DNA from: Isurus oxyrinchus
Taxonomy: Eukaryota
Direction of reading: 5' to 3'
Assembly: GCA_026770705.1 (NCBI GenBank)
Contig: JANJGN010000033.1
Coordinates: 14,508,001-14,572,000 of the forward strand
Length of the DNA: 64,000 nt
The notes beneath the pieces are model-generated. The model had not been told where the DNA came from and ran no database searches. It saw only the letters and a program-made list of their open reading frames with translations. Shown here piece after piece: positions 916 through 1,220 of this stretch. The translations under genes were made by a program, and so were the position numbers. Position 1 is the stretch's first letter. Every line of letters begins with the position of its first letter.

Positions 916-1220
916 TACATGTCGGCATTCATTAGGCTCATTTCTTTTCGGCATTCACATTGGCGCCAAAGTTCCCAGCGAACCATCGAATGGTTCTCCT
1001 CATGTGACGCAAACTGTTGTATCCTTTCAATGGGACAGATAAAGAGCAGGGCCAAGAGCCAAAACAAAGACGGTGCAGGCAGCTGGCGCAAGAGGCTCAG
1101 TCATGTGCATTCAGTTGGCAGGCGAGCTGGTTTAACAGTTGTCCTTTCCAATCGTATGCCATGGCAATTGTAAAGGAGACGCAATATACCGAGCCTGTCA
1201 GCGAGATTGTGACAAATACA

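What the first reader, a model, noticed from the sequence alone, without database searches (positions are those of the whole stretch)
916..936. A second hypervariable 5' window at slot A, with slots B and C as internal negative controls
Seen: slot A flanks vary at about -7 to -16: tacatgtcggcattcattagg (916), ..gccagatgttatt (11226), ..gtcagcagtcatt (14308), tacgtgttgctgattatt (18818), ..gttaccggttatt (23777), ..gtcagcgtttgtt (41654), ..gtttccggttatt (48575), ..gtcagtattcgtt (63023). The homologous slot C flank is nearly constant (atgtcagctgacatcagg, with a minor ttagcgga variant), as is the flank of the B-box-dead slot B (agtgtgggctg). Inference: flank variability tracks promoter competence, predicting that A (TTG) and D (CTG) are the germline-transcribed genes and that B and C are mostly silent. 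The array is therefore a natural experiment linking Pol III activity to local mutation.
Basis: partly seen in the sequence, partly recalled or inferred. Interest (0 to 1): 0.7.

Follow-up and report, generated by a model that had tools for sequence, protein, structure and literature searches.

The report
Upstream mutation hotspot in tRNA array
In a tandem array of tRNA genes, a 12-base stretch just upstream of the two best-preserved gene types has diverged several times more than the DNA around it, while the same stretch is almost unchanged beside the two damaged types; this is most likely the already described mutagenic footprint of RNA polymerase III and would mark which copies are transcribed in the germ line.

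Summary
In this tRNA-Gln array, slot A varies at -18..-7 and slot D at -20..-9. Diversity at -20..-1 against the slot's own far flank: A 0.21 vs 0.046, D 0.40 vs 0.048, C 0.051 vs 0.037, B 0.051 vs 0.029; A+D vs B+C p=4.5e-5. A second Gln array 1 Mb away repeats the contrast between B-box-intact and B-box-dead subfamilies (p=0.016), and Lys and Cys clusters show the same window. The best reading is Pol III transcription-associated mutagenesis. That is known: Thornlow 2018 (PMC6130373) reports a peak 12-15 nt upstream, stronger at active genes, and a 2020 paper uses it to predict activity. B is B-box-dead (10 of 10). C is less clear: 5 of 18 copies keep both boxes, so 'promoter competence' does not fully explain it; C also has a weaker terminator. 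No expression data were obtained. What this adds is a readout among paralogs in one genome and a sharp 12-nt window.

The parts
844..63398 (-). Tandem tRNA-Gln array, 73 tRNA-like copies in the window; unit about 3.46 kb with spacings A-377-B-1661-C-377-D-1047
   Evidence: the whole array is 85 copies at G000:C33:14,502,059 to about 14,575,300
844..915 (-). Slot A gene, tRNA-Gln(TTG), intact
   Evidence: ARAGORN; Rfam 72.6 bits
922..933 (-). Slot A hypervariable window (-18..-7). The same window in the other quoted copies: 11232-11243, 14314-14325, 18824-18835, 23783-23794, 41660-41671, 48581-48592, 63029-63040
   Evidence: 16 extra alleles in 12 sites vs 70 in 250; per-site profile
920..921 (-). 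Invariant CA at -6/-5 of slot A, candidate start site (inferred, not mapped)
   Evidence: diversity 0 at both sites in 22 copies; pyrimidine-purine initiation preference is recalled
832..841 (-). Slot A non-canonical terminator-like tract T3CT2GT3
   Evidence: T3CT2 in 21 of 22 A copies; motif classes tested in vitro in PMC3141230
1221..1292 (-). Slot B pseudogene (paralog of D); T54G in the B box (box at 1233-1241)
   Evidence: B box broken in 10 of 10 full-length copies, 35-42 bits
1293..1312 (-). Slot B 5' flank, two haplotypes only
2882..2953 (-). Slot C gene, tRNA-Gln(CTG) body in an A-type flank, decaying
   Evidence: body diversity 0.080, 0 of 18 copies match the intact consensus, CpG decay at two T-arm sites
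2954..2973 (-). Slot C 5' flank (-20..-1), nearly constant; holds a 14-bp perfect palindrome at 2957-2970; close to the state seen in the second array
   Evidence: 4 haplotypes in 18 copies; related windows in array 2
2870..2879 (-). Slot C 3' tract T3CTCGT3, lacking the T3CT2 motif; no T4 within 250 nt
   Evidence: 17 of 18 C copies lack T3CT2; T3CT gave under 10% termination in vitro (PMC3141230)
3259..3330 (-). Slot D gene, tRNA-Gln(CTG), intact
   Evidence: Rfam 68.1 bits
3339..3350 (-). Slot D hypervariable window (-20..-9)
   Evidence: 28 extra alleles in 12 sites vs 91 in 250; 22 haplotypes in 24 copies
3250..3253 (-). Slot D T4 terminator
   Evidence: T4 at +5/+6 in 18 of 19 non-chimeric D copies

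Best explanation
The 12-nt stretches upstream of slots A and D carry three to six times more substitutions per site than the flanking spacer, most likely because RNA polymerase III initiation at germline-transcribed tRNA genes raises the local mutation rate, with B and probably C largely silent. Shown here: the excess, its position, its absence at B and C, its repetition in a second array and in other isotype clusters. Taken from the literature: active tRNA genes have a mutation peak 12-15 nt upstream. Inferred: that A and D are the transcribed lineages; that the window is the DNA melted first in the open complex (about -13..-2 and -12..-1 from candidate start sites at -5 and -8); that purifying selection or homogenisation keeps the gene bodies conserved; that unequal crossover and short conversions then spread and reshuffle the window alleles.
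For: Window vs own background: A 0.21 vs 0.046, D 0.40 vs 0.048, C 0.051 vs 0.037, B 0.051 vs 0.029; Fisher A+D vs B+C p=4.5e-5; parsimony ratios 3.2, 5.4, 0.9, 0.7. Age control: C background is about as deep as A's, and C bodies are the most diverse (0.080 vs A 0.048, D 0.034). Pairs with 0-2 background differences still differ at 11% (A, 7 pairs) and 28% (D, 6 pairs) of window sites vs 3% (C, 3 pairs) and 6% (B, 21 pairs). Array 2 (G000:C33:15.536-15.61 Mb): 4 B-box-dead subfamilies 3 window / 49 background alleles, 6 intact subfamilies 30 / 119, p=0.016; with 2 mixed clusters added 49 / 177, p=0.006. Other clusters: 4 of 5 families of 3 or more copies show ratios 2.2-3.7 (3 with p<0.05), the fifth lacks a B box and has 0 window / 14 background alleles. 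Literature: peak 12-15 nt upstream, five times higher at active genes (PMC6130373); hypermutation limited to active RNU genes and absent from pseudogenes (10.1101/2022.08.20.504670); initial melting near -10 from the start site in yeast Pol III (PMC6066478).
Against: No expression or occupancy data. 5 of 18 C copies have both boxes intact by my recalled consensus, yet the window is quiet. One array-2 subfamily with both boxes intact (3 copies) has a frozen window, though with only 3 background alleles. The 3' flank is not raised in A (0.20 alleles per site at +1..+10 vs 0.33) and only mildly in D (0.50 vs 0.23), unlike the threefold rise reported in humans. No clear deaminase signature: transitions/transversions 1.48 vs 0.92 (p=0.047) but only 1 of 9 window singletons is C>T. 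CpG decay in the flanks does not separate A from C (0.20 vs 0.18 upstream). With trees built on background only, B's ratio rises to 2.9 and C's to 1.5, which shows conversion is active and inflates such ratios. Start sites are guessed from invariant bases.
Confidence: 0.75

Rival explanations
1. The mutagenesis reading holds for A, D and B, but C is transcribed too; its flank is quiet because a short segment was recently homogenised by conversion or is under constraint (for instance the palindrome binds a factor).
For: 15 of 18 C copies keep the B box and 5 keep both boxes, scoring 57.5-66.5 bits. C's -40..-1 holds 4 extra alleles where its background rate predicts about 9 (Poisson about 0.06, my arithmetic). 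One A copy (30655) carries the C window and another (7691) a mosaic, so window-sized transfers occur.
Against: 0 of 18 C bodies match the intact consensus, mean 4.4 differences vs 1.7 (A) and 1.3 (D); CpG decay at the two T-arm sites in 16 and 7 of 18 C copies vs 1 and 1 of 21 A and 1 and 1 of 19 D; 17 of 18 lack the T3CT2 terminator motif. Related windows in array 2 are not perfect palindromes.
Confidence: 0.15
2. Mutation is uniform; A and D windows are old allele sets shuffled by gene conversion next to the recombining tRNA body, while B and C are younger lineages.
For: Chimeras with breakpoints in the tRNA body exist (D flank on C or B 3' ends at 13192, 16275, 55391, 17699, 20178). Window differences saturate even between close copies, as short conversion would give. 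B's background is the lowest (0.029).
Against: Shuffling makes no new alleles, yet D has 3-4 bases at 9 of 12 adjacent sites while -21..-30 and -6..-1 stay near background. C is as deep as A outside the window. The same position is hit in unrelated flanks (A, D, array-2 families, Lys, Cys).
Confidence: 0.06
3. The window is under diversifying selection because upstream sequence tunes tRNA output or leader processing.
For: Human 55-bp upstream elements change suppressor tRNA output over a range (PMC11662937, passages).
Against: 22 haplotypes in 24 D copies with no shared motif; one copy among dozens has little effect; degenerate tRNA bodies with intact boxes also have variable windows (array 2 cluster X9, 5 haplotypes in 5 copies); human flanks were inferred neutral or weakly selected (PMC6130373).
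Confidence: 0.04

Closest known systems
Transcription-associated mutagenesis at tRNA 5' flanks (Thornlow et al. 2018, PMC6130373; parts 1-3 of 6 of the text read)
   Same: Inner 20-nt 5' flank most variable, peak 12-15 nt upstream, higher at active than inactive genes, gene body conserved, 5' above 3', proposed link to initiation and to activity prediction.
   Different: There it is measured between orthologs and in population SNPs of human, mouse, fly and Arabidopsis with chromatin data; here among paralogs in one array of a likely shark or ray genome, with no activity data, a sharp 12-nt window, and little 3' signal.
tRNA activity classifier (Thornlow et al. 2020, PMC6961574; passages read)
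   Different: Needs multi-species alignments for the flank feature and set aside identical segmental duplicates; tandem paralogs give the signal from one genome.
Pol III hypermutability in the human germline (Seplyarskiy et al., bioRxiv 10.1101/2022.08.20.504670; passages read)
   Same: Multiallelic sites at Pol III genes, limited to active RNU genes and not their pseudogenes; TFIIIB-triggered restructuring suggested as a source of upstream hotspots.
   Different: Human population and de novo data, whole genes affected; supplements not seen.
Arabidopsis 81-gene tRNA triplet array (PMC2886086; passages read)
   Same: Multi-gene tandem unit evolving by unequal crossover, with pseudogene copies.
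   Different: The passages I saw do not treat upstream hypervariability or slot-specific activity.

Membership tests
Pol III transcription-associated mutagenesis at tRNA 5' flanks | Excess variation in the inner 20-nt 5' flank over untranscribed reference DNA | tested here: met
   A 4.7-fold, D 8.3-fold in diversity; 3.0 and 4.5-fold in allele counts
Pol III transcription-associated mutagenesis at tRNA 5' flanks | Peak about 10-15 nt upstream of the mature tRNA | tested here: met
   Most parsimony changes at -12 in both D (7) and A (3, tied with -11 and -9); windows -18..-7 and -20..-9
Pol III transcription-associated mutagenesis at tRNA 5' flanks | Absent or weak at pseudogenes and damaged genes | tested here: met
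   B and C not raised; array-2 B-box-dead subfamilies ratio 0.67 vs 2.8
Pol III transcription-associated mutagenesis at tRNA 5' flanks | Correlates with measured transcription or Pol III/TBP occupancy | not testable with these tools
   No occupancy data are offered and no raw RNA reads were laid
Pol III transcription-associated mutagenesis at tRNA 5' flanks | Gene body conserved while flank diverges | tested here: met
   Body diversity A 0.048, D 0.034 vs window 0.21, 0.40
Pol III transcription-associated mutagenesis at tRNA 5' flanks | Excess of C>T and G>A transitions | tested here: inconclusive
   ts/tv 1.48 vs 0.92, p=0.047; 2 of 9 polarised window singletons are C>T or G>A
Pol III transcription-associated mutagenesis at tRNA 5' flanks | Smaller rise in the inner 3' flank | tested here: inconclusive
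   A 2 alleles in 10 sites (below background), D 5 in 10 (about twice background)

The most novel reading that the evidence does not exclude
The 12-nt windows are an evolutionary footprint of the melted DNA in the Pol III open complex: their 3' edge marks each gene's start site (A at -5, D at -8) and their depth records germline Pol III occupancy per paralog lineage. Tandem tRNA arrays would then report germline transcription and start sites from a single assembly, and slot C would show that a gene with intact internal boxes can be shut off by context alone (weak terminator, methylation or its neighbour).
Probability: 0.3. Interest if true: 0.55.

Novelty: new member of a known kind. Interest (0 to 1): 0.33.

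Why it matters
The mechanism behind the mutation peak upstream of tRNA genes is still open (Thornlow 2018 calls its position 'curious'; Seplyarskiy lists several possible causes). Arrays like this hold homologous active-looking and dead promoters side by side with shared history, and the leaders differ by slot, so occupancy, start site and new-mutation rate can be assigned per slot. That makes it a tidy test system, and a way to guess active tRNA copies in genomes without functional data. It does not change what is known about the phenomenon.

Tried and rejected
Sequencing runs: no RNA holder listed; no read-level check of other individuals or of RNA was obtained, so polymorphism between individuals and expression remain open. 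Neighbour interference (only one gene of each 377-bp pair works): slot and neighbour state are confounded in array 1 (17 of 22 A copies lie behind a B-box-dead gene, 14 of 18 C copies behind an intact one; rho -0.36 over 34 pairs, which are mostly copies of two pair types), but 49 pairs in array 2 give rho -0.14, p=0.34: not supported. Terminator loss as the cause of C's silence: fits array 1 and one array-2 clade (12 copies, ratio 1.5, p=0.25) but not the 8 array-2 copies with the C-type tract (ratio 3.9, a mixed group): inconclusive. Template switching at hairpins: mean longest stem 2.92 vs 2.59 (A, 9% of shuffles as high) and 3.36 vs 2.83 (D, 2%), but haplotypes are related: weak, not adopted. 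AID/APOBEC-only mechanism: not supported by 9 singletons. CpG decay of the flanks as a methylation proxy: no A vs C difference. Paper searches listed no study of paralog-level 5' hypervariability within a tandem tRNA array or of shark tRNA arrays; the library lacks most subscription papers. Scan index: no note with all the words.

Full report
Setting. The window lies at G000:C33:14,508,001-14,572,000 of a 4.98-Gb genome. Earlier scan notes call this genome a shark or ray (not tested here). The window is a minus-strand tandem array of tRNA-Gln genes: 56 by ARAGORN, 67 by Rfam RF00005, 73 by blastn. With flanking DNA the array has 85 copies. The unit is A-377-B-1661-C-377-D-1047; A and C share one flank type, B and D another.

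Observation. The quoted flanks are at the stated places. I examined 80 of 85 copies (5 edge copies left out), dropped 5 with truncated 5' flanks, and assigned 75 by sequence outside the window (A vs C by the base at -27): A 22, B 11, C 18, D 24. Diversity at -20..-1 against -270..-21 of the same slot is A 0.213 vs 0.046, D 0.403 vs 0.048, C 0.051 vs 0.037, B 0.051 vs 0.029. No 20-nt background window exceeds 0.12 in any slot. Variation is confined to -18..-7 in A and mainly to -20..-9 in D, 12 nt each, with one indel among 46 copies. Extra alleles, window vs background: A 17/70, D 33/91, C 3/55, B 2/34; A vs C p=0.014, D vs B p=0.006, pooled p=4.5e-5. The copies are related, so I also counted parsimony changes: ratios 3.2 (A), 5.4 (D), 0.9 (C), 0.7 (B) on trees that include the window; 6.2, 10.6, 1.5, 2.9 on background-only trees, where conversion inflates all four.

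Age control. C is not simply younger. Its far-flank diversity is near A's, and its gene bodies are the most diverse (0.080 vs 0.048 A, 0.034 D, 0.021 B). B's background is somewhat lower, but its window is not raised against it.

Gene integrity. By recalled A-box and B-box consensus rules, both boxes are intact in A 15 of 22, D 18 of 24, C 5 of 18, B 0 of 10 full-length copies; median Rfam bits are 62.9, 64.8, 53.9 and 41.3 over 21, 22, 16 and 8 scored copies. All 10 B copies have T54G. C is mixed: 15 of 18 keep the B box; the A box carries G10T in 9, A14G in 3 and is intact in 6. C bodies show CpG decay at the two T-arm sites in 16 and 7 of 18 copies, against 1 and 1 of 21 A and 1 and 1 of 19 D copies (shared descent inflates these counts). 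Since the lesions differ among C sublineages while the window is common to all, silence may be older than the lesions (inference). One feature is shared: 21 of 22 A copies have a T3CT2 tract at +3 and 17 of 18 C copies lack it, with no T4 in 250 nt; D has T4 in 18 of 19 non-chimeric copies. In human extracts T3CT terminated under 10% while interrupted-T5 motifs did better (PMC3141230, sections 13 and most of 14 read). Array 2 does not settle whether this matters.

Larger sample. A second Gln array of 103 blast hits lies at C33:15.536-15.627 Mb. 93 were classed by flank; both types peak at -20..-1 (0.36 and 0.37 at -20..-7 vs about 0.10 at -100..-21). Clustering without the window gave 12 subfamilies of 3 or more copies. 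Four with no intact B box have 3 window and 49 background alleles; one of them has 8 copies with an identical window and 28 background alleles. Six with mostly intact boxes have 30 and 119 (p=0.016); adding two mixed clusters gives 49 and 177 (p=0.006). One intact-box subfamily of 3 copies shows no window variation. Among 94 tRNA calls in nine other regions, 5 families of 3 or more related flanks formed: Lys (20 copies) ratio 3.1, Cys (5) 3.7, Cys (3) 2.7, Lys (9) 2.2 not significant, and a B-box-less family (3) with 0 window and 14 background alleles.

Mechanism. Neutral spacer DNA sets the background, so a 12-nt excess between quiet neighbours needs more mutation, or diversifying selection. 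Conversion reshuffles alleles (chimeras, mosaic A/C windows) but cannot create 3-4 bases per site. The spectrum is broad: ts/tv 1.48 vs 0.92 (p=0.047), 1 C>T among 9 singletons. If starts lie at the invariant A at -5 (slot A) and the purine at -8 (slot D), a guess resting on a recalled initiation preference, the windows are -13..-2 and -12..-1 from the start, close to the yeast Pol III region that melts first near -10 (PMC6066478, passages). This is a fit of positions, not a test.

What is known. Thornlow 2018 (PMC6130373, parts 1-3 of 6 read) reports inner 5' flanks four times more divergent than reference DNA, a peak 12-15 nt upstream in four species, five times higher at active genes, and suggests initiation as the cause and activity prediction as a use. 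Thornlow 2020 (PMC6961574, passages) builds that predictor. Seplyarskiy et al. (passages) show germline hypermutation at active Pol III genes and not at RNU pseudogenes. Nematode (PMC13010820, passages) and human somatic (10.1101/2025.06.09.658696, abstract) studies agree. My searches listed no paper on the effect among paralogs within one tandem array; that is limited to the open library.

Against my reading. No expression data; five C copies with intact boxes; little 3' flank signal; no flank CpG difference between A and C; damaged A and D copies still carry variant windows, so the signal describes lineages. Neighbour interference was tested and not supported in array 2.

Verdict. Real, well controlled and repeatable, and a new instance of a published phenomenon. 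The predicted activity ranking A, D over C, B is plausible and untested. Interest 0.33; the start-site-footprint reading has about 0.3 probability and would merit 0.55.

Noticed in passing
window 23705-23776 (-): A slot A copy has anticodon TTA (would read UAA), both promoter boxes intact, 57.4 bits. Array 2 has three copies called with CTA. Possible natural nonsense-suppressor alleles.
   Followed up: no
window 32802-34733 (+): 643-aa open frame with RVT_1 (E 1.7e-7) and a weak GIY-YIG match (E 6e-4, below cut-off), inserted between a B and a C copy, with its 3' part repeated upstream; looks like a Penelope-type retroelement (label recalled).
   Followed up: partly
window 13192, 16275, 55391, 17699, 20178, 52342: Chimeric genes with one slot's 5' flank and another's 3' flank, which point to unequal crossover inside the tRNA body.
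   Followed up: partly
window 27983, 38913, 54144, 60280: Four B copies share a deletion that removes the 5' end and flank and shortens the spacer from 1661 to 1247.
   Followed up: no
G000:C33:15,535,963-15,626,981 (L024-L033): A second, older and more decayed tRNA-Gln array in mirror orientation about 1 Mb away, with a two-gene unit of 1.4-1.6 kb and a small internal inversion near 15,571-15,573 kb.
   Followed up: yes
window 2957-2970: Slot C's flank is a perfect 14-bp palindrome; array-2 relatives differ by 2-3 bases, so it may be a chance product of CpG decay.
   Followed up: partly
L042-L045 (G000:C35:16.93-16.96 Mb): Seven near-identical tRNA-Lys(TTT) copies at a 4.5-kb period; within 45 nt upstream they differ only at -14 and, in one copy, at -2.
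   Followed up: partly
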